From a virus (taxonomy: Duplodnaviria > Caudoviricetes): a stretch of 64,000 bases of DNA. Every line of letters starts with the position of its first letter. Position 1 is the stretch's first letter. Under the pieces are notes generated by a model. That model was not told the origin of the DNA. It ran no database searches and saw only the letters and a list, made by a program, of their open reading frames with translations. The stretch is from positions 1 through 64,000 of IMG/VR virus record IMGVR_UViG_3300027734_003164. One strand, given 5' to 3'. The position numbers and the translations under genes were made by a program. Below are positions 5,071-57,314 of the stretch, piece after piece.

Positions 5071-5325
5071 TTATTTTTTTATCATTGCCCTTAATTGACT
5101 ATTACTTTTGTGTGTTATTTTATAATAATTAGATAAGGGGTTCTTACCTTTCTCAGAATCTATGTGTCCTTTTTGGTAAGCTCTATTTATATTATCTGCT
5201 TCAACAGATTCTAATTCATTTATTTTAACTAAAATTTCTTCCAATAAATTATTTTCTTCAGGACTTTTAGCTGAATTTTTTTTATCCTTTAACCAATTTC
5301 TTAACTCTTGTCTAAACGTTTTCAT
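5071..5325 (-). CDS. Hypothetical protein
   Basis: 84-aa ORF in gene-dense, co-oriented context. Confidence 0.6.
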   Translation of the reverse strand: MKTFRQELRNWLKDKKNSAKSPEENNLLEEILVKINELESVEADNINRAYQKGHIDSEKGKNPLSNYYKITHKSNSQLRAMIKK

Positions 5326-5777: not shown

Positions 5778-6362
5778 TTACATATACATATTATAATAGT
5801 AATGAATCAATTTTTTAATTGAGTCGATTAACAATTTAGGAAATTCGTTATTTAAAAAATCAATTAGTTCTGAAATAGAATCAAAACTTGTTGGTGTATA
5901 ACTTGTTGTTAAACCTAATCCATCGTAATCCTCATAATTATCACCAGACTCCCTATCCTCAAAATCACTACCCTCAACAGGTGTTTCACAATCACCATTC
6001 CAATAAGGTGTTGCAAAACCTTTTAACGTATAATTCTTATCATTAAACTCAAAAACTATACTCCCACTATAACCACCCCATGAGAACTTTAAATCCGCAA
6101 ACATGTCATCAAAACTATGTTTCTTGTTAACTAAATCTGTTCTAAAAAGTAAACCAACTAATTTATAAGCTAAACCACAATCAATATGTATTTCTTTATC
6201 TTTTAATAGAAAAATTATTTGTTCTAAAGATAATCCAGTATAATCTGATATTTCATTAAATTCCATACCGTCATTCCACATTTTATAGACGAGGTTTGAG
6301 TTTTTTTCAAAATTTGATTCTAAAAGAGTATTAAATTGTTCTTCTGTAATTATTATTTTCAT
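5778..6362 (-). CDS. MKIIITE-leader hypothetical protein
   Basis: Begins MKIIITEEQFNTLLE. Confidence 0.75.
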   Translation of the reverse strand: MKIIITEEQFNTLLESNFEKNSNLVYKMWNDGMEFNEISDYTGLSLEQIIFLLKDKEIHIDCGLAYKLVGLLFRTDLVNKKHSFDDMFADLKFSWGGYSGSIVFEFNDKNYTLKGFATPYWNGDCETPVEGSDFEDRESGDNYEDYDGLGLTTSYTPTSFDSISELIDFLNNEFPKLLIDSIKKLIHYYYNMYM

Positions 6363-6766
6363 CAAAAATTAAAGTCTTTTCTTTTATTAATTATATCTCT
6401 TACGGATATAATAATCACTTTAGCACCAATTACATTTCTTGCCTCTTCTTGTAGTTGATAAATAAAATTTGCTAAATTGTTGTATTTATAAATCGAATCA
6501 ATATAACAATCAATAGTGATGTTTATTGATTCCATTTTATTTTTTTCAAAATAATCCATAGATGTTGACTTTGAGACATCGACCACTTTAATTTCTTCAA
6601 TCATATCTATTGGGTCACAAATATAACTTTGGTGACTTCTTATGTAATATCCTCCCTCACAATTTTCTATAAGTTGTTCTAATGCCATGTCAATAAGATT
6701 TTGCATCTTATCTGTTTGAGATTCAATTAACATTTTATACTGACTTTCTGTAATTATTATTTTCAT
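6362..6766 (-). CDS. MKIIITE-leader hypothetical protein
   Basis: Begins MKIIITESQYKMLIE; overlaps neighbours. Confidence 0.75.
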   Translation of the reverse strand: MKIIITESQYKMLIESQTDKMQNLIDMALEQLIENCEGGYYIRSHQSYICDPIDMIEEIKVVDVSKSTSMDYFEKNKMESINITIDCYIDSIYKYNNLANFIYQLQEEARNVIGAKVIIISVRDIINKRKDFNF

Positions 6767-7137
6767 CCTATATTGGCTCCTGTAACATCTTTTATTGAAA
6801 CACTTGGAAATAAACTATTAAAGTATTCTGCCAATGCGTATTTGAAATGCCTTGTATAAATATGCCAAGGAACTAACTTTTCAATATCTTCCGCCCAATT
6901 ATAATCATAATAAAGTGTTCGACTACCTTTTCGATAATTAAGTAAAATTTTACCATCTGAATCACCTAACATAATTCTATCTTCTGTTTCACCTGAAGAT
7001 GTAATTTCTAATTTAATGGCCGTAAAAAACATCTCTTCATATTTTGGATATTCTTCAGAATAAGGAGCATCAAATCTATCTCTACCGAATGTTCTTTCGA
7101 TTTCTAATAATTGAGATTCTGTAATTATTATTTTCAT
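6763..7137 (-). CDS. MKIIITE-leader hypothetical protein
   Basis: Begins MKIIITESQLLEIE. Confidence 0.75.
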   Translation of the reverse strand: MKIIITESQLLEIERTFGRDRFDAPYSEEYPKYEEMFFTAIKLEITSSGETEDRIMLGDSDGKILLNYRKGSRTLYYDYNWAEDIEKLVPWHIYTRHFKYALAEYFNSLFPSVSIKDVTGANIG

Positions 7138-7733
7138 TATACGATTTCAACTTCAACATCAATTGGTAATCCGTATTTTTCAAGTAGATTATAAAAATAA
7201 TCATACGCAACACTTCTAATATATCCCAGTAAATCACCAGTTTCATAATATTCTCTTGATATTTCTAAAGCTTCATAAATTGAAACAGTTACTATTCGGT
7301 AGTTTTCATCTTCGTCATCATCCTGCTCTTCGTCATAAACAGACATTTCTATACTTCCATCACCACTAACATTTAACTCAATCAGATTGACTTGTGTACC
7401 GTCTGTCATGTTGTAATCGTCCATTCCAACAACATCAACCTCAGCATAAAGATTTTGAGCATCGTCTTGTATTTCAAATGTTTTACCGTAAATATCGCCA
7501 ATCATTTTATCATATAAAACATCCATACCTCCATTATATTCGTACCATATTGGTCTTATTTGTTGGTAATCTTCAGAGGTGTTTTTTCTTACACCCAAAA
7601 CATTATATAACATATCGTCCAATACTGGTTCTTCCCCACTTCTTTTTTGTCTATCCCAAAAAGAATATAAAAATTCACGAAGATTTTCTTCCGTTAGTAT
7701 ATCGTATTGTGCTTCAGTTATAATAATTTTCAT
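7137..7733 (-). CDS. MKIIITE-leader acidic hypothetical protein; paralog of 9080-9631
   Basis: Begins MKIIITEAQYDILTEE; L.S.WD.Q...G.P..D motif shared with 9080-9631. Confidence 0.75.
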   Translation of the reverse strand: MKIIITEAQYDILTEENLREFLYSFWDRQKRSGEEPVLDDMLYNVLGVRKNTSEDYQQIRPIWYEYNGGMDVLYDKMIGDIYGKTFEIQDDAQNLYAEVDVVGMDDYNMTDGTQVNLIELNVSGDGSIEMSVYDEEQDDDEDENYRIVTVSIYEALEISREYYETGDLLGYIRSVAYDYFYNLLEKYGLPIDVEVEIV

Positions 7734-8539
7734 TATTTCTTTTTCTTTTTTACAACATTCCCAAATTTATGATTTCCAATTGTTACAGTTGGAACCCATT
7801 TTGTTGTGTCAGTGTCTTTGGTCCAATAAGGTTTGACATAATTTGCGTAGTAAAATTGAGCTCCTTGTGTGACATCGGATAATCCACCTATATTTTCAGC
7901 AATCGAAATGGCAGTTGTTAGTTGTTTGTGGTTTTTATATTTATTATAAACATCTTGTAGTTTTTCACCACCACTGTTATATTTATTCCACATAGAAAAT
8001 TGTTTATTAGCCAAAGCCTGTGATTCAACACTTGAACCATAGTTCAAAAAATTATTATCTGCTCTATTTTTTAAAACATTTGCAACAGCTTGCATAGATT
8101 TATATGGGTCGGATTCACCACCTGCTTCACCCAATAAAGTACATACAATTTTTTTGTTATTTTCAGATAAATCATTAAATTCTTTTTTTTCACTAACTTC
8201 TGTTTCTTCTTTTTTTCCTTCTAATTTTTCTAATGTTTTTTTCCCAATCTGTGTACCTTTCACTTCATCAGGTTCCCATAATTTTTTTATAGCCTCTTGG
8301 GTTTTATTACCATAGTAACCATTATTACTTTTTGTATCCAATAAGTTTTTGTCTTGCAACATTTTTTGAATTTTTACTATTGCTGAACTTTCACCAGCGT
8401 TACAATAACCTTTCTCGATAATCTTACCATCTCTTATTTGTTGTAAAGTAATGAGTTCATCTTCTTTTGTTCCTTCAGGACAAGGATTAGTGTTTTCTAA
8501 AATATATCTAAACTGAGTTTCTGTGATAATTATTTTCAT
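7733..8539 (-). CDS. Cell wall hydrolase (SleB/Hydrolase_2) with peptidoglycan-binding segment and MKIIITE leader
   Basis: LLGEAGGE (catalytic Glu), AVANVLKNR, QFSMWN, GAQFYYANYVKPYW, IGNHKF; IQKML...GYYGNKTQEAIKKL PG-binding-like. Confidence 0.8.
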   Translation of the reverse strand: MKIIITETQFRYILENTNPCPEGTKEDELITLQQIRDGKIIEKGYCNAGESSAIVKIQKMLQDKNLLDTKSNNGYYGNKTQEAIKKLWEPDEVKGTQIGKKTLEKLEGKKEETEVSEKKEFNDLSENNKKIVCTLLGEAGGESDPYKSMQAVANVLKNRADNNFLNYGSSVESQALANKQFSMWNKYNSGGEKLQDVYNKYKNHKQLTTAISIAENIGGLSDVTQGAQFYYANYVKPYWTKDTDTTKWVPTVTIGNHKFGNVVKKKKK

Positions 8540-8545
8540 ATTTTT

Positions 8546-8552
8546 ATAAATA
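8546..8552 (-). promoter_or_regulatory. TATTTAT motif (putative late promoter) heading the MKIIITE operon
   Basis: GTATTTATAAAAATATG directly upstream of the 8539 start. Confidence 0.55.
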
Positions 8553-8562
8553 CATTAAGCAT

Positions 8563-8591
8563 AAAAAAAGTCAGGATTTCCTGACTTTTTT
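8563..8591. terminator. Rho-independent terminator (symmetric, bidirectional)
   Basis: AAAAAAAGTCAGG-ATTT-CCTGACTTTTTT. Confidence 0.8.
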
Positions 8592-8611
8592 ACTATATAT
8601 AGGACGAGATA

Positions 8612-8860
8612 TTAAAGACCATATAATTCTTTTTTTGGTCCGAGTAAATCAATAGCTTTACTCACCGCCAGGTCTTTGGTCTTTAAACCTTTCTCGATTA
8701 TTTTTTTAGCGTGATAGACAACATAATCCGTAGTTTTAACATCACCTTTGGTGAACTTATACTTACTTTCTTTTTTTGGTTTCATTGTGTCATTAGCATA
8801 GATGTCGTAGAATCCAACTTTGCAAATGTAACGTCCTTTTTTTCCTGATTTTGTCGCCAT
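8612..8860 (-). CDS. Small basic hypothetical protein
   Basis: 82-aa ORF with its own TACATTTG promoter (8898-8905) and terminator. Confidence 0.7.
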   Translation of the reverse strand: MATKSGKKGRYICKVGFYDIYANDTMKPKKESKYKFTKGDVKTTDYVVYHAKKIIEKGLKTKDLAVSKAIDLLGPKKELYGL

Positions 8861-8936
8861 AATTTATTGTTTATTTTTTAAGTGGTTAATATTAATACAA
8901 ATGTATATAAACTATTTCGTTTAATCAAAACTTTTA

Positions 8937-9083
8937 TTAATTATTTTTTTTCTTTTTTCTTCCCTGACAATGGGCTCTTTGTGAAAAACCTTTTGGGTTG
9001 TTACAATCAATAGACCTTTTATATTTGTTGGACCATTTCTCAATTAACATTTGAAGTTGTTCTTCTGTAATAATAATTTTCAT
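8937..9083 (-). CDS. 48-aa MKIIITE-leader microprotein with a Cys pair
   Basis: Not in the ORF track. MKIIITEEQLQMLIEKWSNKYKRSIDCNNPKGFSQRAHCQGRKKKKNN. Confidence 0.75.
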   Translation of the reverse strand: MKIIITEEQLQMLIEKWSNKYKRSIDCNNPKGFSQRAHCQGRKKKKNN

Positions 9084-9631
9084 ATCTCAACGTAATACAC
9101 ATCAACCTTTATTCCTGTTCTTGGATATATTAGTTCATTTAAACAATCTTGGATGACATTTGAAATCTCACTTTGTATTTCCCATCCCACTTCGTCATCA
9201 TTTATAGCGTCTTTTAATGACATGTGTCTTCCATCCATAAGGGTTACAGAACCTCTTTTTGATGCTTGACAGTCTAATTTATATACATCATCTTGATTAT
9301 AAACATCAATAATAGCCCAATCAAAATCATATCCACCAACAAGTCTTTCGGGAAAGTCTCTTGTCGAAAAGTTACTATTTGATAGTTCATCAATTATTTC
9401 CATAGTTTTTTTTTCTCCACCAATGTAGTCATTAAAAAACTCAGCATAGTCATTAATATCCGTCCATTTATCTATACCAAAATACTTCAGCTCATCTTCA
9501 TCAAATGTTGGGTAACCGTATTCTTTAGTTTGTTTATCCCACATACTAATAAGAATATCAGAAATACGAGTGGGTTTTTTTGAATTTTCAACCACCATCT
9601 TCATTTGGGATTCTGTGATTATTATTTTCAT
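9080..9631 (-). CDS. MKIIITE-leader hypothetical protein
   Basis: Begins MKIIITESQMKMVVE. Confidence 0.75.
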   Translation of the reverse strand: MKIIITESQMKMVVENSKKPTRISDILISMWDKQTKEYGYPTFDEDELKYFGIDKWTDINDYAEFFNDYIGGEKKTMEIIDELSNSNFSTRDFPERLVGGYDFDWAIIDVYNQDDVYKLDCQASKRGSVTLMDGRHMSLKDAINDDEVGWEIQSEISNVIQDCLNELIYPRTGIKVDVYYVEI

Positions 9632-10662: not shown

Positions 10663-11778
10663 TTAAATATAATCTAAAAACATTTCGTTTATGTTTCTTC
10701 TTGTTCTGTCCCAATCAGGATAATCGGGGATTCTAATGTCAATACATTCTATTTCATCATTATAAATCATACCATTAATAAGTGAAGTATATCCACCAAA
10801 ATATTCTAAAAATGAATCACTATAAGTTCCGCCTTTGTTATTTTCTAAAAATGTTTTTATAATTCCAATAAAATCTCTGATTTTAATATATTGGTCGTAT
10901 TTAGTTTTTTCACCAACCTTTCTTGGAACCTCATCAATACGACCCTCGAAGTATTCACTAAGACCTTTATAAACGGCGTCATAAATCTCATCTTCGTATG
11001 CTTGATTTTCAGAGTTATAGTAAATACTTATTAGTTCATGACCAATATCTTCTAAATCTTTTTTGAAAAGTTCGTTTGATGCGTCACTATCGTTTAATAG
11101 GTCGTTTAAATCTTCAGGTCTTATTCTAAAATAACCTTCAGTTCCTTGAATTTCAGATAAATGTTCAAAAAAGTCGGAATTATAATCCTCTAATGATAAT
11201 TCTTGATTTCCTATTTTTTTATAAATAACATCTTTAAGATGTGTAATATTAGAATCATTTAAATCATGTATTGTATCATGTGGTGTCATACCAGAATCAA
11301 AATACCAATCGTGACCTAAACCATCTTCACTTAAAATTAATTTTGCAACATGTCTGGGGTCACTATCACTTCTTCTACTACCACTACAAAAATATTCACT
11401 TAACTCTTCTCTATCTCTTAAACTTAGATAAAAACCACCATTTCTAATCTCAACATCGGTAATTAAATTTTTGACTATATAATAAACTGTGTCTTCGTAG
11501 TTGTCTTCTAAACCTTTTAAAAGTAATATATTTTTTAGTTCTTCAGGTGCGTTGTCGTAACTAAGATTTGTTAAAACACCATTTTCATCTAAAAAATGAA
11601 TAAGTTCATCATCCCAAGCACGATAATATATTTGACCTAAATCAATTTCATCTAAAAGACCATATTTTTTAACAAACTTAAAAAAAGTAATAAGGTCGTT
11701 AAAATACGGCTCAATTTCATCTTCAAATTCACCGTCATTAAATGAATCAACTAATTGTCTTGCTCTTTCTGAACTCAT
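10663..11778 (-). CDS. Acidic hypothetical protein
   Basis: 371-aa ORF; TATTTAT at 11784-11790. Confidence 0.7.
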   Translation of the reverse strand: MSSERARQLVDSFNDGEFEDEIEPYFNDLITFFKFVKKYGLLDEIDLGQIYYRAWDDELIHFLDENGVLTNLSYDNAPEELKNILLLKGLEDNYEDTVYYIVKNLITDVEIRNGGFYLSLRDREELSEYFCSGSRRSDSDPRHVAKLILSEDGLGHDWYFDSGMTPHDTIHDLNDSNITHLKDVIYKKIGNQELSLEDYNSDFFEHLSEIQGTEGYFRIRPEDLNDLLNDSDASNELFKKDLEDIGHELISIYYNSENQAYEDEIYDAVYKGLSEYFEGRIDEVPRKVGEKTKYDQYIKIRDFIGIIKTFLENNKGGTYSDSFLEYFGGYTSLINGMIYNDEIECIDIRIPDYPDWDRTRRNINEMFLDYI

Positions 11779-11790
11779 ATTTTATAAATA

Positions 11791-12693
11791 CTATAACTCT
11801 ATAGGTTTATTTTTGAATAGAACTTCAGTTTTGCTTAAAATTTCATATTTCCCTTCTATATTTTTAAATACATAAACATCATCTACATCGTATGAGGCAA
11901 ATACAAAATAATCAACAGGTTTTTTATCTAACCCTATAACATTATATGTAGTAACCAAATAACCATCTTTAGTTTCTTGAATGCTTGTCAGAGGTTTTAC
12001 TTGGAACTTTGCTGATTTTTCTTTTTTCTCGTTGGTCATTATAATATCAATGCCACTTCTATCTGAAGTTGAGCCAGGTAAATATCTTTTGGATAATTCC
12101 CAATCAGGTAGTTTTTCAACAACTTTTGATAAGAACTCGTGAGCCTTTCTTTCGTTCATCTCACCTCTCATAAGTGATGTTGCATTCAACTCAACCAAAT
12201 CTTTTAATATTGGACCTTCTTTAAAAATCTTATTTCTATTTCTTGACATCCACAATATAAAATCTTTTACTGACTCTTCGTTTGTTAAACTATTGGATGT
12301 TTCTTTTTCCCATAAATTAACCAAATACTTTCTTACTTGTGGGTTTGTATCAAAATAATTTATTATTGACCAGTCTCCACCTTCTTGTTCATAATCATCA
12401 AGACCTTTTTCTTTCATTAAATCAAAAACGGTATATATGTTTACAAATCCTCCACGACCTCTTGTTCCTCTTCCTTCTTGGTCTGACCAATTTGTATTTC
12501 CGTATATATCTTTTAGTATAAAAAAGACTTTTTCTTTGAATGGTTTGGTGAACTCAGGACTATCGATAGTAATATTACTTTCAATATTGGTGTCTTCAGT
12601 AGTATCATCTTCAAAATCTAAAGAAAGTTGTTCACCTTCTATTAAATTCATTAATTTTTTTATTCTTGTTATATCTTCGTTAATACTTTTCAT
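11791..12693 (-). CDS. NEDITRIKKLM-leader protein, possible PD-(D/E)xK nuclease C-terminal domain
   Basis: Begins MKSINEDITRIKKLMNLIE; GEMNE...DRSGIDII...KFQVKP. Confidence 0.5.
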   Translation of the reverse strand: MKSINEDITRIKKLMNLIEGEQLSLDFEDDTTEDTNIESNITIDSPEFTKPFKEKVFFILKDIYGNTNWSDQEGRGTRGRGGFVNIYTVFDLMKEKGLDDYEQEGGDWSIINYFDTNPQVRKYLVNLWEKETSNSLTNEESVKDFILWMSRNRNKIFKEGPILKDLVELNATSLMRGEMNERKAHEFLSKVVEKLPDWELSKRYLPGSTSDRSGIDIIMTNEKKEKSAKFQVKPLTSIQETKDGYLVTTYNVIGLDKKPVDYFVFASYDVDDVYVFKNIEGKYEILSKTEVLFKNKPIEL

Positions 12694-13424: not shown

Positions 13425-13444
13425 AATAATAAATACTTCAATAT

Positions 13445-24132: not shown

Positions 24133-24540
24133 TTATTTTCTAATTTTAACCGTATCAACCGGTGTAATCGTTACATTTGTTACACCTCTCTTTAAAAAAT
24201 TAAGTTGTTTTGCCGTTCCATAACTCAAATCAATAATGAATTTAGAACTTTTTGGTAGTCGGTCATTAACTTTTACATAACAAACTGAATCATTATGATG
24301 ATTAAATACTTTTACTATTGTTCCAAATTTAAAGTATTTGTGAGCTGCGGTTAAACTATCTGCGTAAAATCTTTCTCCTGATGCTGTCATTCTACCTGTC
24401 CAGTGTTGTCCATAGTAGGTAGCAGTTCCTTTATATTCAGGTGTGGTTAAAATAAAAGATAAAAATAGTAATGGTGTGAAAACCAATAATTTATTTAAGA
24501 TTCCAATTTTTGTATTTTGTTTCAATTTTTCTTTTTCCAT
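24133..24540 (-). CDS. RlpA-family (DPBB) lytic transglycosylase
   Basis: GTATYYG, TASGERF, LTAAHK, VKVNDR, IIDLSYGTA..L; start uncertain (overlaps upstream gene). Confidence 0.85.
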   Translation of the reverse strand: MEKEKLKQNTKIGILNKLLVFTPLLFLSFILTTPEYKGTATYYGQHWTGRMTASGERFYADSLTAAHKYFKFGTIVKVFNHHNDSVCYVKVNDRLPKSSKFIIDLSYGTAKQLNFLKRGVTNVTITPVDTVKIRK

Positions 24541-25738
24541 ATTTTTTTTCCATGACTCTTTGGTGTAAATCCCAATTCAGAATAGATTCACTAACTTGTT
24601 CGTCATCTTTTGCCATATCATATAATTTTGATATTTTCTTTAACATTTTGTTTGCCACATAATTAAATTTTTCAAATTCGACTTCAAAAAATTTAGTTGG
24701 GTTTTTTTCATACTTTGTGGTTTGAGATAAAAACTTTTGTCTTATTTGATTTGTTTTATGGAGTCCTTCTAACTTTTCTTTGGCTCCGTCAGGTAGTAAA
24801 CCTAATTGTAAACCAAATTTTAAAAAGTCATCATAAGAATGTTCTGTCATCGTCATAAACAATTCCATTCTGTTATTTACCAAATCAATGTATACTATTT
24901 CCAACGCTTTATTTATTTTTTCATCAATAGTCATGTTAGAAGGGTCTTCACCAATATGTTCAATAAGTTTGTCCAATCTTTCTTCTTGTTCTTTTAATAG
25001 TGAAATAAAATCATTGAATGTAAAGTTTTTGATTTGAACTAATTCTTTATAAACTCTGTTGTTTTCTAAAAAATCTTTGAATTGAGATTTTGTTATATTT
25101 TTTCTTTTCATTGAATACGCCACTTCTGTTGGTCTAACCAAGTTTTCTATCGCATGAATATAATACATTTTACGATAAAAATCCCTATCAATTGCAGGTA
25201 TTCCAAAAGTACCTCTTTGTTGAGTTGCCTGATATTCAGCATCAAGACCAATTAACGCATATTTTTTAGATTGTTTATCGTATTTGTGTTTTATTTCATG
25301 AGCTAAAGATGAAACGTGTTCATCTCTTTCTTCTTCCATTTTTTGAATTAGCCCTTCAGGTTCCCAATTTTCACCAACAGCAAATGTAATTGTTAATTCT
25401 AAAGTTGTTGACGGTTGAGCCTCTTTCATAAAGGTTTCTCTACTAAATCCAAATCTACCTCCCATTCCCATTTGAATTATATCTAAAACACCCTCTTCAT
25501 CTTCTATTTCTTCAATATTAACTACAAGTTCATATGAATCAATTTTAATTTTTTTCTTATCTCCAAGTTCAAATTCTATTATACCATCGAATTTATATTC
25601 ATCTTGAATAGAGTCTATGGATTTAATGTCTTGTTCAACAACATCATATAACATGTCGGCAGCATCCAAAATATTTTCAGGAACACCTAACGCCTCATTC
25701 AACATTTTTAATTGGTTTTCGGATATAATAATTTTCAT
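24491..25738 (-). CDS. MKIIISE-leader protein with zincin-like HExxH motif
   Basis: Begins MKIIISENQLKMLNE; LAHEIKH...E; TATTTAT at 25743-25749. Confidence 0.6.
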   Translation of the reverse strand: MKIIISENQLKMLNEALGVPENILDAADMLYDVVEQDIKSIDSIQDEYKFDGIIEFELGDKKKIKIDSYELVVNIEEIEDEEGVLDIIQMGMGGRFGFSRETFMKEAQPSTTLELTITFAVGENWEPEGLIQKMEEERDEHVSSLAHEIKHKYDKQSKKYALIGLDAEYQATQQRGTFGIPAIDRDFYRKMYYIHAIENLVRPTEVAYSMKRKNITKSQFKDFLENNRVYKELVQIKNFTFNDFISLLKEQEERLDKLIEHIGEDPSNMTIDEKINKALEIVYIDLVNNRMELFMTMTEHSYDDFLKFGLQLGLLPDGAKEKLEGLHKTNQIRQKFLSQTTKYEKNPTKFFEVEFEKFNYVANKMLKKISKLYDMAKDDEQVSESILNWDLHQRVMEKKYGKRKIETKYKNWNLK

Positions 25739-25812
25739 AATAATAAATATGTTGGAGTTATGGTTTATCCAACAACCCCAACTATATTATTTTGCCTAAG
25801 ATTTGTCAAACT

Positions 25813-37045: not shown

Positions 37046-37882
37046 ATGATACTAAAAAATGGGTCAAAAGGAGATGACGTAAAAAAACTCCAAGAAAAAC
37101 TAGGTGTTGAGGCAATTGGAACCTTCGGGCCTAAAACTGAAGCCGCTGTTAAAGCATGGCAAAAAGCAAATGGATTAAAAGATGATGGTATTGTAGGTGA
37201 TGCCACTTGGGCTAAACTATTTGGTAAGTCAGCTCCCGCAGCAACTGTAGTTAAAGAAGATGTGGTTATACCTTCAGGAGGACCGTTAAACATTGAAAAA
37301 TTAAAAGGTCATATCCCTGACGCAGTGTTGGCACAAATACCTGAAACCGCAGCTAAATTCAACATTACAAACAACTTGAGACTTGCACATTTTCTATCAC
37401 AATGTGGTCATGAGTCAGGTGGGTTTAAGGCCGTGAGTGAAAACTTAAATTACTCAGCGGATGGTTTGAAAAAAATCTTTGGTAAGTACTTTCCCGGTAA
37501 TCTTAACGAGTCTTATGCAAAACAACCCGAGAAGATTGCATCTCGTGTTTATGGTAATAGAATGGGTAATGGTGATGAAGCATCAAAAGAAGGTTATAAG
37601 TTTAGAGGTAGAGGATATATCCAATTAACAGGAAAAGCAAACTACACAAAGTTCACTCAATTTATTGGTGAGGACTGTGTTTCAAACCCTGATTTAGTGG
37701 CAACTAAATATCCTTTGGCATCTGCAGCGTTCTTTTTTGATTCAAACAAACTATGGGTAATTTGTGACAAAGGAGCCGATGATGCAACAGTCACATCAGT
37801 AACAAAAAGAGTAAATGGTGGAACATTAGGTTTATCTGACCGAATAAAACACTTTAAAGAATATTACAATTTACTTAAGTAA
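37046..37882 (+). CDS. Endolysin: PG_binding_1 domain + glycoside hydrolase family 19
   Basis: LKNGSKGDDVKKLQ..LG...GTFGPKT..AVK.WQ..NGL.DDGIVG; LAHFLSQCGHESGGF, ENLNYS, FRGRG.IQLTGK.NY, KRVNGG..GL.DR. Confidence 0.9.
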   Translation: MILKNGSKGDDVKKLQEKLGVEAIGTFGPKTEAAVKAWQKANGLKDDGIVGDATWAKLFGKSAPAATVVKEDVVIPSGGPLNIEKLKGHIPDAVLAQIPETAAKFNITNNLRLAHFLSQCGHESGGFKAVSENLNYSADGLKKIFGKYFPGNLNESYAKQPEKIASRVYGNRMGNGDEASKEGYKFRGRGYIQLTGKANYTKFTQFIGEDCVSNPDLVATKYPLASAAFFFDSNKLWVICDKGADDATVTSVTKRVNGGTLGLSDRIKHFKEYYNLLK

Positions 37883-47278: not shown

Positions 47279-47596
47279 TTACATTCTTGAACCTAATCTA
47301 CTTTCTAAGTCTCTTAATTCATCTCTTTTTGATGTATAAGTTCCAAAGGTGTCATCTTCATCGTGTGCGCCATAACCTTTTTTAAGTCTTGCCATAATTG
47401 AACTTGCAACTTCATTTGGTTTTTCAACAATAAACTTAGCTAATGTAATCATTTCGTCATTCCCTTTTTCAGAAAATTCAAAAGTTGCGAATATATCATC
47501 AAGAATGCTATTGATTTCTCTTCTATCGTTTTTGTCTTCTTTGATTACACGTCTAACAATACGTGATAAATCTCTTTCAGTTAATCTATTTCTCAT
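47279..47596 (-). CDS. RLTE-leader hypothetical protein
   Basis: MRNRLTERDLSRIVRRVIKE; TATTTAT at 47612-47618. Confidence 0.75.
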   Translation of the reverse strand: MRNRLTERDLSRIVRRVIKEDKNDRREINSILDDIFATFEFSEKGNDEMITLAKFIVEKPNEVASSIMARLKKGYGAHDEDDTFGTYTSKRDELRDLESRLGSRM

Positions 47597-48746: not shown

Positions 48747-49532
48747 TTATTTACCAATTTGCGCTTTCCAAGTAGACCTTAAACTACCAAGACCGTCACA
48801 AAAATAAGAAACAACACTGTCTGCTAAATTTTTGTTCATTTTAGTCAAATTGGCACTCCTAAAAGCTTGGGAAAAATTTTTGTTCGATGCCACCCTACCA
48901 ATTTGTTCATTGGGTTTAGATTGAAGTACGTTACTCATAACATAGTGGTATGAAGACATATTTGCCGATTTCAAATCATCCAAATCTTTTGTAATTGCAG
49001 CACTATAAGCTCCGTTACAATTAACAGTATAATTTATACTACCGGGAGTAACGTTGGGGTAAGCACTAATACTTAAATCTAATAGGACATAATCTCCACC
49101 ACTAGTTCCAAATTTTATAGATGAAATCGTTGCCTTTACCGGTGTACCTGTAAACTTACTTGCCACTGTATAACTACTACCATAACCAACAGTTAAAAGT
49201 TGGTTTCCTGATGGGTCTGTTACTGAAAATTTTTGCCCTTGGGTAACTGCCGGTCCAGGAGCTGTTGCGGTTTTTGCACTTTTGTCCAAGTTTTCAGGTT
49301 TTATTGCGTTTGTCTTAACCCAATCAATGTCTTGTTGTTTGGTTAACTCAGTCCAAGTTTTACCCTCATCTCTACTAGTGTAGTATTTGTTCCCTTGTAC
49401 TTTATATTTAATTTTACGACCATCACCTTCCCAATTATAAATTGCCTGTTCTGACAAATATTGTCTTGATGTAGCGTTTTGATGCATATTAAGTATTCTA
49501 CTTTTTTCTTCTTCTGAAATTAAAAACTTCAT
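48747..49532 (-). CDS. KFLISEEEK-leader hypothetical protein
   Basis: MKFLISEEEKSRILNMHQNAT; TATTTAT at 49565-49571. Confidence 0.75.
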   Translation of the reverse strand: MKFLISEEEKSRILNMHQNATSRQYLSEQAIYNWEGDGRKIKYKVQGNKYYTSRDEGKTWTELTKQQDIDWVKTNAIKPENLDKSAKTATAPGPAVTQGQKFSVTDPSGNQLLTVGYGSSYTVASKFTGTPVKATISSIKFGTSGGDYVLLDLSISAYPNVTPGSINYTVNCNGAYSAAITKDLDDLKSANMSSYHYVMSNVLQSKPNEQIGRVASNKNFSQAFRSANLTKMNKNLADSVVSYFCDGLGSLRSTWKAQIGK

Positions 49533-49665
49533 AATCATTTTGTTTTATTTTTTATTATTTAAATATAAATATAGAGTTGAATAAAAAAAAAAACTAATAA
49601 AGTTTTTTTTGGTTTAATTTTTATGTGTATATTTGTAGAAATAATCATTTAAAAAAATAAACCTC

Positions 49666-50123: not shown

Positions 50124-50531
50124 TTATTTTTGACTTGGTGTCGATTTTTTATAATTTTGAACATTATTGTTCATTTCAGTTAATTTAGTTTTTAGTGCGT
50201 CCATGAATTTTTCTGTTTGACCTGCAACCCTAAAGTTTCCTTGTAATCCATTTCCACCCATAAATATTGAAACCATCTCATCAATATTTGTAGAAACGTT
50301 GGAAGTGCCTTTGAGCCCTCTCAGATTTCCGTCTGGCATTTTTGATGCCCCTGTTAAATAAACATAATCTTGATTTGCATCATATCTTATACTAACAGTA
50401 ATATTACCATATGATAATTGGATAGTGGATGGTTTTTTTACTGCGGTATTAGGAGTTGGTGCCTGCTCATTAATAACACGTCTAACAATACGTGCTAAGT
50501 CTGATTCTGTAAGTCTTATAATTCTTTTCAT
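50124..50531 (-). CDS. RLTE-leader hypothetical protein
   Basis: MKRIIRLTESDLARIVRRVINEQ. Confidence 0.75.
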   Translation of the reverse strand: MKRIIRLTESDLARIVRRVINEQAPTPNTAVKKPSTIQLSYGNITVSIRYDANQDYVYLTGASKMPDGNLRGLKGTSNVSTNIDEMVSIFMGGNGLQGNFRVAGQTEKFMDALKTKLTEMNNNVQNYKKSTPSQK

Positions 50532-51572: not shown

Positions 51573-52163
51573 TTATAACCCAGATTGTGTTTTTTCAACT
51601 GTTTTATTTCCTGTCGCACTTGTCATTTTATATTTACTGTTTTGAACATCACCTTGTTGGTCGTATTTGGTTACTTGTTTATATTTTGAACCATCGTCCG
51701 CAGTACCTTTAGTAACTTGTCTTCCTTTTTTACCTTTAGGATTTAATATCTGACTTACTGCTCTTTTTGCCTCTTCTTCAGTATTATATCCATTCCCACC
51801 ATTTGTGGATAAAAGTGTATTTTCTTTTGGTATACCCATACCGTTGTTTCCCCACGAGCTGGCAACATAGAATTTACCACCAAGGTATGAAGTCAATCCT
51901 TCACCACAAGTATCACCACTAACAGGGAACCATTTCATATAGTTCAGGTTTCCTTGTTTTTCATACCTACATGCGGTTTTATTTAATTTTACGATATATA
52001 TATCTTGACCATAAAAATCATTATCTAAACAATCATTGGGGTTAATACATTTATATGGTCCAGATACTTTTACTGATTGTTCGTTGAGTATGGGTTTTTT
52101 AAATTCTTCATGTAGATTTAAAATTCTTATTTTTTCTTCTTCACTAATAAGAAACTTTCTCAT
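51573..52163 (-). CDS. KFLISEEEK-leader hypothetical protein
   Basis: MRKFLISEEEKIRILNLHEE. Confidence 0.75.
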   Translation of the reverse strand: MRKFLISEEEKIRILNLHEEFKKPILNEQSVKVSGPYKCINPNDCLDNDFYGQDIYIVKLNKTACRYEKQGNLNYMKWFPVSGDTCGEGLTSYLGGKFYVASSWGNNGMGIPKENTLLSTNGGNGYNTEEEAKRAVSQILNPKGKKGRQVTKGTADDGSKYKQVTKYDQQGDVQNSKYKMTSATGNKTVEKTQSGL

Positions 52164-52164
52164 A

Positions 52165-52464
52165 TTACATTCCAATAATTAATTCATCAGGATTAAATCC
52201 TCTTGAGCCTTTAATTTTATCTTCCATTTCATCATACATATATGATTTAACAACAGCCAAAATTGATTGTTCTGATTGAGCAATTTTTGTTTCCATCCAA
52301 TCTTCCAACTGCTCACCTTCTTCCATCATTTCCCACATTTTATGTGCCAACGTTGCAATTGTAAAAAGTTGTTGTTTTGCCATGTAAGAACCTCCTTCAT
52401 GGTTTTCTTTAAGTTGTTTTACAACCTCTTCAAGTTGTTCTTCTGTTATAATGATTCTTCCCAT
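52165..52464 (-). CDS. IIITE-leader hypothetical protein
   Basis: MGRIIITEEQLEEVVKQLKE; YMAKQQL...LEDWMETKIAQ. Confidence 0.75.
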   Translation of the reverse strand: MGRIIITEEQLEEVVKQLKENHEGGSYMAKQQLFTIATLAHKMWEMMEEGEQLEDWMETKIAQSEQSILAVVKSYMYDEMEDKIKGSRGFNPDELIIGM

Positions 52465-52473
52465 ACAATTTTT

Positions 52474-52725
52474 TTATCTCAACTTTCTTTTTAATTCATC
52501 AATTATATTTTCTAACCTTCTAACTTGATGTTTAACCAAATCTTTGGCTTCCTCAATTTTTCTTGAATCCCCTCTTTTTGTTGCGGCATCTAATTCATCT
52601 AAAGAGCCAGATACTCTTCTACATGTCCCTCTGAAATCTTCAGCAACTTGATTTATACTTTCGTTAATTGTTCTTTTAACAATTTTATTTAAATCAGATT
52701 CACTTAGTCTAACTATTTTTTTCAT
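52474..52725 (-). CDS. RLSE-leader hypothetical protein
   Basis: MKKIVRLSESDLNKIVKRTINE. Confidence 0.75.
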   Translation of the reverse strand: MKKIVRLSESDLNKIVKRTINESINQVAEDFRGTCRRVSGSLDELDAATKRGDSRKIEEAKDLVKHQVRRLENIIDELKRKLR

Positions 52726-52746: not shown

Positions 52747-53115
52747 TCACCAGGTTCTGCAAGCCCAATATCTTGGTTTCCATCTTGGGCCAGGATTATC
52801 GCAATTGTGTCTTGCTCTAAATGAACGTCTCCTTTCAGGATTGTTCTTTTTAATCACCATTCGTTTTCCTTTTGCTGATTTTCCACCAAACCCAAAGTTC
52901 ACTTTAACAACCTTTCCTTTGTCGTTTTTAACGTATACCTTGAACTTTTTGATGTCCCCTTGCATAATCTTACCAAGTTGTACTTTTCGTCCCTGATACT
53001 CCGCCTCATGTAGCAAGTTTATTTCTTCAACATTTCCGTAAATGTCTTCATAAATAAAATCCTGATGGAATGATTCTTCAATTAAAATTTTTTTAATTAT
53101 TGATTCTATATTCAT
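52747..53115 (-). CDS. Basic phage protein with I.K.IL.E leader
   Basis: MNIESIIKKILIEE; EAEYQGRKVQL...KKFKVYV...KVNFG...NPERRRSFRARHNC...RYWAC..W; TATTTAT at 53120-53126. Confidence 0.75.
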   Translation of the reverse strand: MNIESIIKKILIEESFHQDFIYEDIYGNVEEINLLHEAEYQGRKVQLGKIMQGDIKKFKVYVKNDKGKVVKVNFGFGGKSAKGKRMVIKKNNPERRRSFRARHNCDNPGPRWKPRYWACRTW

Positions 53116-53136
53116 AACAATAAATATATCATTAAT

Positions 53137-55288: not shown

Positions 55289-55786
55289 TTACAATTCAAG
55301 AAAATAAAAATCTTTTACGTCATCTGAATAGTGTAAATCGTATCCTAAATTTTTATATAAGTTTTGTGCGGTATTGTTTTCTCGATGAGTAATTAAAGTA
55401 CAATACTTAAATCCTTCCTGTTTAGATACATCGTGAGCCAAATTCATAATTTGTTTTCCAAAACCATTTCCTCTAAAATTTTCATTTACATATACATCGT
55501 AAATGTATGTGGTGTTGTCCCTATTAAAAAAGTTTTCATCACAATTTTTTTTGCACCAACTTTTTTCTTCATATAATCTAGGTATGTCATAATCTAATTC
55601 CCACCCATTATCAAAAGATACTACATTCGCATAACCAATTAAATTTTCATCTAAACCCATAATTTTGATTTTTTTCCCAAAAGTATTTTTAGTTTCCCCC
55701 TCAAATAAAATATTAGTTGGAATCTGACTACTTTCAAAAATATTCATCATAGATTTCATTCTTGATATTTCTTCGTGTAGTTTCAT
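55289..55786 (-). CDS. GNAT-family N-acetyltransferase with HEEISRMKSMM leader
   Basis: YIYDVYVNENFRGNGFGKQIM (motif A), L...NNTAQNLYKNLGY (motif B). Confidence 0.85.
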   Translation of the reverse strand: MKLHEEISRMKSMMNIFESSQIPTNILFEGETKNTFGKKIKIMGLDENLIGYANVVSFDNGWELDYDIPRLYEEKSWCKKNCDENFFNRDNTTYIYDVYVNENFRGNGFGKQIMNLAHDVSKQEGFKYCTLITHRENNTAQNLYKNLGYDLHYSDDVKDFYFLEL

Positions 55787-55792
55787 TTTTAA

Positions 55793-57292
55793 TTAACTAT
55801 TTTCAATTTTTTTATTTAAAATATCCACAAAAGTATTTTTCATATCTTTTACTAAATCCGAATAAGTTCTTTTTGGTGTGTTTTCCATTTCATCTTCAAA
55901 GTTTATACCTTCTCTTCTTATCTGATTAAGAGCGGCTTCAATTTGTTTTTCTGACAACTTTCTAAATCTTAAAAGTTTTTGTTTAATGTCTTTAACAAAA
56001 TTATTATCTCCTTCGTAATTTGCAATCGGTAATGTTTCTTCAGGTAAATCTTTAGTGTATGGTTTATCATATCCACTATATAAGAAGTTTATTCCTGATA
56101 TGTTGGTAATACATTTATGTCCTCCTGAATTTGCTTGTAAAAAGTCATAACCATTAATAGTTTGTTTTTCAGAATCAAATGAAGGCATTTTACCATATAA
56201 TGCCATCATATCTTTTGATGTGAAACCAACTGACTCAGGTGTCGCCTCTCTTTCTGAGATTCTTTTAATAATTCTAAAACTTAGTATTTCTTTTTCTAAT
56301 TCAGGTCTAAACTTCTCTAAAACCTCATCTTTAATTTCACCTAAGTTTATACCTTTAAGTGCTCTTTCTTCTTTAAATGGGTTGCAAGATGCTTGAACCA
56401 TACCGACTTGCCCACCAAGACCAGTCACTAAAAAGTCAGCGTCAGGGTGTATTCTAAATGGTACATATCTATCATAAGAACCTTTTCTCATACTACCAAG
56501 ACCAAATTGTGAAATAACATTTCCTGTTTTTTCTATTGCCCCTTCTTTTTGTCTTGCTTGTAAGAATTTTTCTTGGTTTTGTGTCATGGTTTCAATAGAT
56601 GCAAAATCTTGGTCTTTTGCCATTTTTTTGATATTAGTAAGAATACTAATTAATGATGGTTTCGAGTTCATTACTAAACTTTCCATGAAGTTAGGATTAT
56701 TTTTATAAGCCAAAAGTAACTTATTAACCACCAATCCCATTAACATTTTATTTTGTTTTAATGAACTGTCTTTGTCAAATTTATATAAGAAGTTCATTAC
56801 CATTTCTGGAGTTATTTTATTAACAGCAAAGTTTGCAGAATCAACAGTTGATATTAACATTATATCGTCAGATGGGAATATTTCTTTAGGGGATATAACT
56901 TGTGATATTGTTTCAACATTGGACCTTGCGTGTCTAAAACTTGTTGCAGTATCGTCTTCAACGCCAGCTTGACTATCGTGATGGTCTGTATGAATAACAA
57001 ACATTGGTTTACCGTGTGCAAAATCCACAAGTACTGGCATCACATCACCCTCACCTTCAGGTTTTTTAATTGCAAATTCTTTTGTTCCATATTGAATAAC
57101 TTCGCAATCAACCACATTAATACCATTTTGTTCCAAATAGTTTTTCATGGCAATTGCAGTTGTAACACCATCTAAGTCTTGATGAAAATAAATTTTAGCC
57201 TTTTTGTATCTTTTAGCAATATTTTTAATATCTCTAATTCCTGATTCTTTAATCAGCATTCTAAATTGACTTTCAGTTATAATAATTTTCAT
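55793..57292 (-). CDS. DHH-family phosphoesterase with MKIIITE leader
   Basis: FHQDLDGV, VDFA, TDHHD, C-terminal GGH; start moved to MKIIITESQ; TATTTAT at 57297-57303. Confidence 0.75.
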   Translation of the reverse strand: MKIIITESQFRMLIKESGIRDIKNIAKRYKKAKIYFHQDLDGVTTAIAMKNYLEQNGINVVDCEVIQYGTKEFAIKKPEGEGDVMPVLVDFAHGKPMFVIHTDHHDSQAGVEDDTATSFRHARSNVETISQVISPKEIFPSDDIMLISTVDSANFAVNKITPEMVMNFLYKFDKDSSLKQNKMLMGLVVNKLLLAYKNNPNFMESLVMNSKPSLISILTNIKKMAKDQDFASIETMTQNQEKFLQARQKEGAIEKTGNVISQFGLGSMRKGSYDRYVPFRIHPDADFLVTGLGGQVGMVQASCNPFKEERALKGINLGEIKDEVLEKFRPELEKEILSFRIIKRISEREATPESVGFTSKDMMALYGKMPSFDSEKQTINGYDFLQANSGGHKCITNISGINFLYSGYDKPYTKDLPEETLPIANYEGDNNFVKDIKQKLLRFRKLSEKQIEAALNQIRREGINFEDEMENTPKRTYSDLVKDMKNTFVDILNKKIENS

Positions 57293-57314
57293 ATTAATAA
57301 ATACCAATTAAAAT

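What the first reader, a model, noticed from the sequence alone, without database searches (positions are those of the whole stretch)
5778..9631. Tandem array of unrelated proteins sharing an MKIIITExQ N-terminal leader
Seen: seven near-consecutive ORFs (5778, 6362, 6763, 7137, 7733, 8937, 9080) start MKIIITE[SEAT]Q and end the motif with a hydrophobic-x-E about 15 residues in. Three more occur at 24491, 52165 and 55793. The codons vary, and the downstream bodies are unrelated (SleB hydrolase, zincin, DHH enzyme, microprotein). Established: T4 internal head proteins carry a short N-terminal capsid-targeting sequence (MKTYQEFIAE) removed by the prohead protease after (I/L)-x-E. Inference: a modular tag that routes diverse cargo into the capsid or another phage compartment for injection.
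Basis: partly seen in the sequence, partly recalled or inferred. Interest (0 to 1): 0.82.

Follow-up and report, generated by a model that had tools for sequence, protein, structure and literature searches.

The report
Shared N-terminal leader on phage proteins
Ten otherwise unrelated genes in this piece of a large uncultured lake phage start with the same short peptide (MKIIITE.Q...), which most likely works like phage T4's tag for loading proteins into the virus head, although no experiment has shown packaging or cutting.

Summary
Nine minus-strand ORFs start MKIII[T/S]E.Q and a tenth starts MGRIIITEEQ. All ten have a hydrophobic-x-Glu at residues 12-20, and their bodies are unrelated.

- **Level of conservation:** it is at the protein level. 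There are 66 different 21-nt encodings, and synonymous codon usage matches that of the bodies.
- **Distribution:** the leader is strictly N-terminal and virus-specific. It sits on at least 63 unrelated body families in one group of roughly 270-320 kb T4-like phages.
- **Modularity:** orthologous bodies carry other leader classes instead (RLTESDL..IVRRVINE, ..IKKIL.EE). In a 635-kb megaphage the same body carries a T4-CTS-like MISKYNQFINEE. A fused protein keeps only one leader.
- **Head machinery in relatives:** they have a T4 gp21-type protease, a scaffold, and a gp23-like capsid protein with an invariant LINE|A at the T4 cleavage position.
- **Match to T4:** the leader's ITE equals the proven cleavage site of T4 Alt (MELITE|).
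- **Regulation:** leader operons share a TATTTAT box with the head and tail genes.

Best reading (about 50%): a capsid-targeting and processing tag for packaged, probably injected, cargo. Nothing shows packaging directly, because no cultured phage carries the leader. This scan has noted the same leader on other DNA, and the text search found no paper that names it.

The parts
5778..6362 (-). Leader gene 1 (194 aa), MKIIITEEQFNTLLE..., acidic body of unknown family
   Evidence: orthologues with the same leader in L063, L030 and L052
6362..6766 (-). Leader gene 2 (134 aa), MKIIITESQYKMLIE..., unknown body; ATGA overlap with the next gene
6763..7137 (-). Leader gene 3 (124 aa), MKIIITESQLLEIE..., unknown body
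7137..7733 (-). Leader gene 4 (198 aa), MKIIITEAQYDILTE..., very acidic body. In L113 this body is fused to the 9080-type body, and the second leader is lost
7733..8539 (-). Leader gene 5 (268 aa), first gene of the operon: MKIIITETQFRYILE... followed by PG_binding_1 and a SleB-type cell-wall hydrolase
   Evidence: Pfam Hydrolase_2 at 1.3e-12; PHROG endolysin; NCBIfam SleB
8546..8553 (-). GTATTTAT promoter-like box, ending 6 nt before the ATG at 8539
   Evidence: the same box precedes the portal, protease, scaffold, capsid and sheath genes in relative G004
8563..8585 (-). Hairpin (GTCAGG-AAAT-CCTGAC) plus T-run: terminator-like end of the upstream operon
   Evidence: read from the sequence; the generic terminator scan did not list it
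8937..9083 (-). Leader gene 6 (48 aa microprotein), MKIIITEEQLQMLIE... then KYKRSIDCNNPKGFSQRAHC
   Evidence: the tail matches T4-like cyanophage DNA at 79-84% identity
9080..9631 (-). Leader gene 7 (183 aa), MKIIITESQMKMVVE..., unknown acidic body
11784..11791 (-). TATTTAT box 5 nt before the ATG of 10663-11778. This is the probable start of the operon that ends with leader genes 7 and 6
24491..25738 (-). Leader gene 8 (415 aa), MKIIISENQLKMLNE..., body with an invariant HExxH; TATTTAT box 4 nt upstream (25743-25750)
   Evidence: no family or fold match
52165..52464 (-). Leader gene 9 (99 aa), variant MGRIIITEEQLEEVVKQLKE...
55793..57292 (-). Leader gene 10 (499 aa), MKIIITESQFRMLIKE|SGIR..., DHH-type phosphoesterase body; TATTTAT box 4 nt upstream (57297-57304)
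   Evidence: orthologues carry other leaders
50124..50531 (-). Class B leader gene, MKRIIRLTESDLARIVRRVINE... (also 47279-47596 and 52474-52725)
   Evidence: the same 22-residue leader sits on dozens of unrelated proteins
51573..52163 (-). Class C leader gene, MRKFLISEEEKIRIL... (also 48747-49538)
52747..53115 (-). Class D leader gene, MNIESIIKKILIEE...; its body is 87% identical to an A-leader protein in L050 (class D also at 61390-62589)
37046..37882 (+). Leaderless PG_binding_1 + GH19 lysin with a TATTTAT box: the likely ordinary endolysin, so the leader-tagged SleB enzyme need not be the lysis enzyme

Best explanation
MKIIITE.Q-(helix)-h-x-E is a portable N-terminal address tag of a group of about 270-320 kb T4-like phages that probably infect Bacteroidota. 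The proposed mechanism is by analogy with T4 internal proteins and Alt, and it is inferred rather than shown.

1. Late in infection, tagged soluble proteins are made together with the head proteins.
2. The exposed N-terminal strand and helix dock them onto the scaffolding core of the prohead.
3. The gp21-type prohead protease then removes the tag after Glu, at I-T-E7 and/or at the h-x-E near residue 15.
4. The trimmed cargo stays in the capsid and enters the next host with the DNA.

The cargo includes a SleB-type wall hydrolase, a DHH phosphoesterase, an HExxH protein and small acidic proteins. In relatives it also includes lysozyme, SLT, an ECF sigma factor and a GDSL lipase.

Shown here: the tag exists and is conserved as protein. 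It is N-terminal, modular, exchangeable between classes and virus-specific. It is associated with the same promoter-like box as the head and tail genes.
For: 1. **Protein-level selection.** The 7-residue core has 66 distinct 21-nt encodings. Synonymous usage equals that of the bodies. Ser8 uses both AGY and TCN codons.

2. **N-terminal only.** 190 of 193 III[TS]E.Q occurrences lie 1-2 residues after Met.

3. **Modularity.**
- 177 A-leader proteins fall into 63 unrelated body clusters. Their Pfam domains are as different as SleB, lysozyme, SLT, GDSL lipase and ECF sigma factor.
- Orthologous bodies carry A, B or D leaders.
- The DHH body carries MKIIITE here, MKNLIRKFLKEH..LILE in L014, and the T4-CTS-like MISKYNQFINEE in megaphage LR745206. 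In that megaphage KYxxFIxE recurs 12 times against 0 for the control.
- In each of these proteins the homologous body starts right after an I-x-E (after I-N-E-E in the megaphage).
- The fusion protein in L113 keeps one leader and replaces the second with a linker.

4. **T4-type head machinery.**
- All six relatives that are at least 86% complete have Peptidase_S77.
- G004 has the order portal ... protease, scaffold, gp23-like capsid protein.
- That capsid protein aligns with T4 gp23. LINE|A sits at the position of T4's LTE|A and is invariant in six relatives.

5. **Protease-type sites.**
- I-T-E7 matches T4 Alt, which starts MELITE and is processed at ITE-6 (PMC5694885).
- h-x-E ends at residues 12-22 in 66% of A leaders and 89% of B leaders, against 17-39% in controls. 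In the window it is 10 of 10.
- Class B ends V-I-N-E, like the capsid protein's L-I-N-E.

6. **Co-regulation.**
- The [AG]TATTTAT box precedes the portal, protease, scaffold, capsid and sheath genes and 18 of 25 leader genes in G004 (Fisher p = 2e-7). It is absent at DNA polymerase, RNR, helicase and ClpC.
- In the window, all five transcription units that hold A-leader genes start with the box, while only 16 of 120 genes have it.

7. **Virus-specific.** More than 120 IMG/VR loci carry the leader. Only 5 short MAG contigs do so in 185,579 cellular species.

8. **Soluble cargo with an unpacked tag.** Only 1 of 177 has a TM-like segment. AF2 gives mean pLDDT 60 for residues 1-10 of a well-folded 148-aa member, which has overall pLDDT 88.

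9. **Precedent.** T-even internal proteins are diverse defence proteins that share only a CTS (PMC3012670).
Against: - There is no direct evidence of packaging, cleavage or injection for any leader protein.
- The nearest cultured phages by capsid-protein similarity (Flavobacterium Immutovirus, Microcystis Mel-JY01) lack the leader, so no virion proteome applies.
- The leader cannot be aligned to T4's MKTYQEFIAE.
- 21% of A leaders have no [ILVM]-x-E between residues 8 and 29. Some family members delete residues 12-17 altogether. Only I-T-E7 is universal.
- About 20 tagged genes in this window and about 40 in G004 is far more than T4's handful.
- The box also precedes a DnaB-type helicase, and its role as a late promoter is inferred.
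- The window's own genome is not held, so its protease and capsid genes were seen only in relatives.
- A leader gene beside the protease in G004 is not conserved in G003, G005 or G006.
Confidence: 0.5

Rival explanations
1. It is a protein-level N-terminal tag with another destination or purpose. Possibilities: a docking or recognition peptide for a different phage machine (for example the lineage's ClpC-type unfoldase and peptidase, a chaperone, or a non-capsid assembly); or a removable pro-peptide that keeps late enzymes such as wall hydrolases inactive until cut.
For: Everything that shows a modular, exchangeable, virus-specific protein tag fits this reading equally well. Some tagged bodies, such as wall hydrolases and an HExxH protein, are enzymes that often need latency. 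Relatives carry a ClpC-like ATPase.
Against: - It does not explain why the tags end in the motif of the capsid protein's maturation site.
- It does not explain why the universal I-T-E equals T4 Alt's cleavage site.
- It does not explain why an orthologous body in a megaphage carries a T4-CTS-like leader.
- The ClpC gene lacks the box that leader genes share with head genes.
Confidence: 0.25
2. It is a translation-initiation feature. At many of these genes the TATTTAT box ends only 4-6 nt before the ATG, so the mRNAs may be leaderless. The AU-rich first codons (AUG AAA AUH AUH AUH ACN GAA) would then be selected for ribosome loading in a host without Shine-Dalgarno pairing. The phage's own ribosomal protein bS21 might help. 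On this reading the peptide is a by-product.
For: The box sits 3-7 nt from the ATG in 36% of A-leader genes. There is no Shine-Dalgarno sequence upstream. The codons are extremely AU-rich. A bS21 gene lies next to the protease gene in G005.
Against: - 56% of A-leader genes have no box and sit inside operons with ATGA or TAATG overlaps, yet they keep the same residues.
- Synonymous sites vary freely while the residues are invariant.
- Conservation extends to T-E-x-Q and an amphipathic helix, which no base-composition argument predicts.
- The motif is essentially absent from 185,579 cellular genomes, including Bacteroidota hosts.
- Other leader classes with different sequences replace it on the same bodies.
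Confidence: 0.08
3. It is a remnant of common descent or a recombination handle with no function of its own. Either the genes form one fast-evolving paralogue family that kept only its N-terminus, or the leader DNA persists because it allows in-frame cassette exchange.
For: The genes form tandem arrays. Three neighbouring genes (starts at 6362, 6766 and 7137) share an identical first 21 nt. G004 holds eight paralogues of one 148-aa leader family. T4's ipII and ipIII share 30 identical leader nucleotides.
Against: The bodies include unrelated Pfam folds. There are 66 different encodings of the same seven residues, which means purifying selection on the peptide rather than on the DNA. A handle alone does not explain N-terminal exclusivity or the loss of the leader in the fused protein.
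Confidence: 0.07

Closest known systems
Phage T4 capsid targeting sequence (CTS, MKTYQEFIAE) of internal proteins IPI, IPII and IPIII
   Same: Both are short N-terminal peptides shared by otherwise unrelated, fast-evolving proteins. Both end in (I/L)-x-E. Both occur in a phage with a gp21-type protease, a scaffolding core and a gp23-type capsid protein. The genes are clustered in both. T4's ipII and ipIII start with the same peptide. The CTS is described as the only conserved part of a diverse set of defence proteins (PMC3012670).
   Different: There is no alignable sequence similarity. Here the tag comes in at least four or five interchangeable classes. It sits on about 20 genes in this window, about 40 per related genome and at least 63 body families, against a handful in T4. 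The leader DNA is not conserved, whereas T4's is identical over 30 nt. Packaging and cleavage are unproven.
N-terminal propeptide of T4 Alt (MELITE|), an ADP-ribosyltransferase packaged in the head and injected
   Same: Alt starts M-E-L-I-T-E and is cut by gp21 at ITE-6 (PMC5694885). The leader here is M-K-I-I-I-T-E, with the same I-T-E at residues 5-7. A relative has MEIIISE. The cargo is enzymatic, as Alt is.
   Different: The match is only 3-4 residues. It is not established that Alt's hexapeptide is itself the targeting signal. Here a conserved Q9 and a helix follow the I-T-E.
Propeptide-processed ejection and inner-body proteins of giant phages (phiKZ, 201phi2-1, SPN3US)
   Same: These are large phages that package dozens of proteins. 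Many are trimmed by a gp21-related protease after Glu in a 3-residue motif, and some paralogues share identical N-termini (PMC5694885).
   Different: Those phages use (A/S/G)-x-E and have no common portable leader across unrelated proteins. Their head contents are known from proteomics, while here nothing is measured.
Polyvalent proteins of phages and conjugative elements (Iyer et al. 2017, PMC5512222)
   Same: They are predicted to be delivered with the DNA. Their domain repertoire overlaps: zincin-like HExxH peptidases, lysozyme or transglycosylase, and factors that jump-start transcription.
   Different: Polyvalent proteins fuse many domains in one giant polypeptide. Here each domain is a separate small protein with its own tag. 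The only atlas link (LPD domains, scores 0.80-0.83) is at chance level.

Membership tests
T4-type capsid targeting / gp21-processed N-terminal propeptides (IPI-III, Alt) | Short peptide at the extreme N-terminus, shared by otherwise unrelated proteins | tested here: met
   Ten ORFs in the window with unrelated bodies; 63 body clusters among 177 proteins; 190 of 193 occurrences are N-terminal
T4-type capsid targeting / gp21-processed N-terminal propeptides (IPI-III, Alt) | Peptide ends in the prohead-protease motif (I/L)-x-E | tested here: met
   I-T-E7 is universal. A second h-x-E is present in 10 of 10 in the window, and ends at residues 12-22 in 66% of A leaders and 89% of B leaders in the wider set, against 17-39% in controls. 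T4 Alt is cut at ITE-6
T4-type capsid targeting / gp21-processed N-terminal propeptides (IPI-III, Alt) | Phage has a gp21-type (S77) prohead protease, a scaffolding core and a gp23-type capsid protein with a cleaved propeptide | tested here: inconclusive
   Met in all six relatives that are at least 86% complete. The window's own genome is not held, so it could not be checked there
T4-type capsid targeting / gp21-processed N-terminal propeptides (IPI-III, Alt) | Sequence similarity to the T4 CTS MKTYQEFIAE | tested here: not met
   The only shared features are an MK start and a terminal h-x-E. However, an orthologous DHH body in megaphage LR745206 carries MISKYNQFINEE
T4-type capsid targeting / gp21-processed N-terminal propeptides (IPI-III, Alt) | Expressed late, together with the head genes | tested here: inconclusive
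   Leader genes share the [AG]TATTTAT box with the portal, protease, scaffold, capsid and sheath genes, and the box is absent at replication genes except one helicase.
T4-type capsid targeting / gp21-processed N-terminal propeptides (IPI-III, Alt) | Tagged proteins are physically inside the capsid and the tag is removed | not testable with these tools
   No cultured carrier and no proteome
Sec / lipoprotein signal peptides | Hydrophobic core of about 10-15 residues after a basic N-terminus | tested here: not met
   Only three Ile residues, followed by T-E-x-Q and a charged helix. 1 of 177 proteins has any TM-like stretch. True signal peptides are present on other genes of the window
Polyvalent proteins (Iyer et al. 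2017) | Two to fifteen disparate domains fused in one polypeptide | tested here: not met
   Median length is 167 aa with mostly one domain each. One two-body fusion was seen

The most novel reading that the evidence does not exclude
A group of about 270-320 kb T4-like lake phages uses a set of interchangeable N-terminal address tags (MKIIITE.Q, RLTESDL..IVRRVINE, ..IKKIL.EE and others). The tags load dozens of swappable soluble proteins into the capsid for delivery with the DNA. The cargo includes wall hydrolases, a DHH phosphoesterase, HExxH proteins, an ECF sigma factor and many proteins of unknown function. If so, the injected protein set of uncultured phages could be read directly from sequence, and it is an order of magnitude larger than T4's.
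Probability: 0.4. Interest if true: 0.8.

Novelty: new variant of a known kind. Interest (0 to 1): 0.62.

Why it matters
If the tag really routes proteins into the capsid, it gives a sequence-only way to list the proteins that uncultured giant phages bring into the cell with their DNA. That class is rich in anti-defence and host-takeover functions and is otherwise found only by virion proteomics of cultured phages.

It would also show that T4's small internal-protein system has been scaled up to tens of cargo proteins per genome, with several exchangeable tag types. A short, portable, self-removing loading tag could serve for engineering cargo into large capsids. A packaged sigma factor and a packaged DHH phosphoesterase would be new kinds of injected effectors.

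Tried and rejected
- **Complex prediction** of the G004 prohead protease with residues 1-45 of a leader protein gave no verdict (score 0.00, controls not run). It counts neither for nor against.
- **Cultured carriers.** tblastn of the DHH and 198-aa leader proteins found only uncultured huge phages or nothing. A 30-aa class B leader query found nothing at E up to 10. Pattern scans of Flavobacterium phage immuto and Microcystis phage Mel-JY01 were negative.
- **Literature.** The string MKIIITE occurs in 0 papers.
- **Curated families.** Pfam, PHROGs and NCBIfam have no model for the leader.
- **Body identification.** PDB profile searches for the DHH and HExxH bodies gave no hits. The AF2 model of the 415-aa protein was poor (pLDDT 63). 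Foldseek found nothing significant for it or for the 148-aa family. The atlas search gave only unnamed viral clusters.
- **Leader gene as a fixed part of the head module: rejected.** In G004 an MKIIITE gene sits between the portal and protease genes, but G003, G005 and G006 lack it there.
- **Charge bias of cargo: rejected as a discriminator.** Net charge per residue differs little from other genes.
- **Generic promoter and terminator scan** was uninformative.
- **The window's own genome is not held**.

Full report
**1. What is there**

The window is about 30% GC, and almost all genes lie on the minus strand. Seven ORFs between 5778 and 9631 start MKIIITE[E/S/A/T]Q. Five of them (8539 down to 5778) are joined by ATGA or TAATG overlaps. 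Two more (9631 down to 8937) end the operon upstream.

Three further copies lie at 24491-25738 (MKIIISENQ), 52165-52464 (MGRIIITEEQ) and 55793-57292. All ten have [ILVM]-x-E ending at residue 12-20. The bodies share no significant similarity.

The body labels stand as follows:
- 7733-8539 is PG_binding_1 plus a SleB-type hydrolase.
- 55793-57292 keeps the DxD, DHH and GGH motifs of DHH phosphoesterases, but reaches only sub-threshold profile scores.
- 24491-25738 has an invariant HExxH and nothing else recognisable.

The window holds other recurring N-termini:
- RLTESDL..IVRRVI.E at 47279, 50124 and 52474.
- KFLISEEEK.RIL at 48747 and 51573.
- ..IIKKIL.EE at 52747 and 61390.
- ..I[ST]R[IM]K..M at 11791 and 55289.

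In total, about one gene in six carries such a leader.

**2. Protein or nucleotide signal?**

The upstream DNA is not conserved. Across 177 leader genes from the window and related contigs, the seven-residue core is written in 66 different ways. Synonymous codon frequencies in the leader match those in the bodies, and Ser8 uses both AGY and TCN codons. The conservation is therefore on the peptide.

In a sample of 163 non-identical N-termini, L/I at position 13 is 91%, E15 is 42% and E16 is 22%. After about residue 16, conservation is gone. Within one family, residues 12-17 can be deleted while MKIIITE.Q stays.

**3. Distribution**

CheckV completeness values for the host contigs scale with length as expected for genomes of about 290-350 kb. 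All six records that are at least 86% complete (269-322 kb) carry a T4 gp21-type protease, Pfam Peptidase_S77.

In 596 Gb of cellular genomes, the pattern extended by Tyr10 occurs five times. All five are on MAG contigs of 1.8-8.1 kb; two belong to a Flavobacterium MAG and one to a Saprospiraceae MAG. The leader is therefore a viral feature and not a host-type signal.

The motif is N-terminal in 190 of 193 occurrences. The loci in that count were found with an ATG-anchored pattern, which biases it. The unbiased six-frame scan of the window gives 10 of 10.

**4. Modularity**

The 177 A-leader proteins fall into 63 body clusters, of which 35 are singletons. Pfam finds SleB, phage lysozyme, SLT, GDSL lipase, Peptidase_M78, L5 gp82, LRR and a complete ECF-type sigma factor among them.

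Orthologous bodies carry different leaders:
- Window 52747 (MNIESIIKKILIEE) is 87% identical in its body to L050:5671 (MEIIISESQYKRLVLEN).
- L136 (MNLNSIIKKVLKEE) matches L027 (MKKIKLTEADLAKIIQRIVNEG).

The DHH enzyme appears with several N-termini:
- MKIIITESQFRMLIKE|SGIR in the window.
- MKNLIRKFLKEHTLILE|SGIR in L014.
- MNMRKNLILE|SGIR in L108.
- MKKIISE|GGIR in L025.
- MISKYNQFINEE|VGLR in the 635-kb megaphage LR745206.

The last of these resembles T4's MKTYQEFIAE. The pattern KYxxFIxE recurs 12 times in that genome, against 0 for the reversed control. I did not check that those 12 are N-terminal.

In L113, the bodies of the 7137-type and 9080-type genes are fused. The second leader is replaced by a linker, and the body resumes exactly at KPTRxSDILI. 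So there is one leader per polypeptide.

The class B leader, M[KR][KR]I[IV]RLTESDLARIVRRVI[NKS]E, is nearly invariant over 22 residues. It sits on dozens of unrelated metagenomic proteins and is often followed by a Pro/Thr-rich linker.

**5. Link to head assembly**

In the complete relative G004 (296 kb, fetched), the gene order is: portal, a 238-aa protein, a 148-aa MKIIITE protein, a 155-aa protein, the S77 protease, a 71-aa protein, a 508-aa acidic scaffold-like protein, then a gp23-like capsid protein. The leader gene at that place is not conserved in G003, G005 or G006, so I do not count it as evidence.

The capsid protein aligns with T4 gp23. SFLINE|ATGEG lies where T4 has SFLTE|AEIGG. 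That gp23 is cut after Glu65 is established knowledge. In five further relatives L-I-N-E-A is invariant and is followed by a variable stretch. That is the pattern expected of a maturation site. Class B leaders end V-I-N-E.

T4 Alt starts MELITE and is processed at ITE-6 (PMC5694885). The A leader has I-T-E at residues 5-7.

h-x-E ends at residues 12-22 in 66% of A leaders and 89% of B leaders. In same-size control windows or shuffles it is 17-39%, and in non-leader N-termini it is 28%.

**6. Regulation**

A box [AG]TATTTAT precedes 93 of 383 genes in G004. These include the portal, protease, scaffold, capsid protein, tail sheath and probable terminase genes, and 18 of 25 regex-defined leader genes (odds ratio 9.7, p = 2e-7). 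It is absent at DNA polymerase, RNR, a helicase and ClpC. One DnaB-type helicase has it.

In the window, 16 of 120 genes have the box. Every transcription unit that contains an A-leader gene begins with it. Thymidylate synthase, RNA ligase and the signal-peptide genes lack it. That this box is a late promoter is an inference.

At A-type genes that head an operon, the box ends 4-6 nt before the ATG. This suggests leaderless or nearly leaderless mRNAs. A bS21 gene lies beside the protease gene in G005.

These facts keep a translation-level rival alive. However, 56% of A-leader genes have no box and lie inside operons, and they keep the same residues.

**7. Structure**

AF2 folds the 148-aa family well (pLDDT 88). 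Residues 1-10 have mean pLDDT 60, there is no secondary structure before residue 7, and a helix runs from residue 7 into the body. In the 415-aa model, residues 1-14 are below 50. The MKIIIT segment is therefore not predicted to pack on the body.

Only 1 of 177 proteins has a TM-like segment. The window also has a leaderless PG_binding_1 + GH19 lysin with the box. The tagged SleB enzyme therefore need not be the endolysin. A virion-borne wall hydrolase has precedents such as T7 gp16 (my knowledge, not checked here).

**8. Verdict**

The capsid-targeting reading is the best available explanation, and I give it about 0.5. It is the only reading that accounts at once for three things: the protease-type sites, the swap to a T4-CTS-like leader on an orthologous body, and the box shared with the head genes.

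It remains unproven. No carrier is cultured, and no paper in the library names the motif.

Earlier notes of this scan report the same or similar leaders on this genome and on others, with the same reading. Those are unchecked AI notes. I used them only as leads.

In kind, this is a new variant of a known system, the T4 CTS and internal proteins. It differs in scale, in having several exchangeable tag classes, and in its sequence.

Noticed in passing
window 8546-8553, 11784-11791, 13429-13436, 25743-25750, 53120-53127, 57297-57304 (minus strand): The promoter-like box [AG]TATTTAT ends only 4-6 nt before the ATG of operon-leading genes. If it is a -10-like late element, these mRNAs would be leaderless or nearly so.
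   Followed up: partly
window 47279-47596, 50124-50531, 52474-52725, 48747-49538, 51573-52163, 52747-53115, 61390-62589, 11791-12693, 55289-55786: At least four further N-terminal leader classes occur: RLTESDL..IVRRVI.E; KFLISEEEK.RIL; ..IIKKIL.EE; ..I[ST]R[IM]K..M..[LIF].E. With the ten A-type genes, about 19 of roughly 120 genes are tagged.
   Followed up: partly
L089:6783-7346 (minus strand): A complete ECF-type sigma factor (Sigma70_r2 + r4) carries the MKIIITE leader, and a TATTTAT box lies 4 nt upstream. It is a candidate packaged transcription factor.
   Followed up: partly
L113:2149-3258: A 370-aa protein fuses the bodies of the 7137-type and 9080-type genes. The internal leader is replaced by a linker.
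   Followed up: yes
window 8948-9036; L126 (Prochlorococcus phage P-TIM68): The C-terminal part of the 48-aa microprotein (..SIDCNNPKGFSQRAHC..) matches T4-like cyanophage DNA at 79-84% identity. In P-TIM68 the match lies inside a 373-aa hypothetical gene between the tail-completion and major-capsid genes.
   Followed up: partly
L156 (LR745206.1, 635-kb uncultured phage): The DHH orthologue starts MISKYNQFINEE, which is like the T4 CTS. The pattern KYxxFIxE occurs 12 times in that genome against 0 for the control.
   Followed up: partly
L122:2650-2838 (G005); L125:590-778 (G003): A ribosomal protein bS21 homologue (Pfam 5e-9 for the G005 copy) lies next to the prohead protease gene in relatives.
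   Followed up: partly
L135:2873-5968 (G004 portal gene): The 1031-aa portal protein has PHROG HNH-endonuclease matches at residues about 229-412, which suggests an inserted homing or intein-like element. A 574-aa homing endonuclease gene follows the capsid gene.
   Followed up: no
L134:17237-18508 (G004) and orthologues in L034, L091, L023, L040: A conserved 423-aa protein just upstream of the probable terminase gene has a leader ending I-[NM]-E|APIDY[DE]GP. This resembles the capsid protein's LINE|A site. It has no family match.
   Followed up: partly
L152, L153 (Flavobacterium MAG); L155 (Saprospiraceae MAG): The only cellular-genome hits to the leader pattern are short MAG contigs binned with Bacteroidota. 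They are probably mis-binned phage fragments and give a weak hint to the host.
   Followed up: no
window 5071-5325: The last gene of the array operon starts MKTFRQEL, faintly like T4's MKTYQEF. This is probably chance.
   Followed up: no
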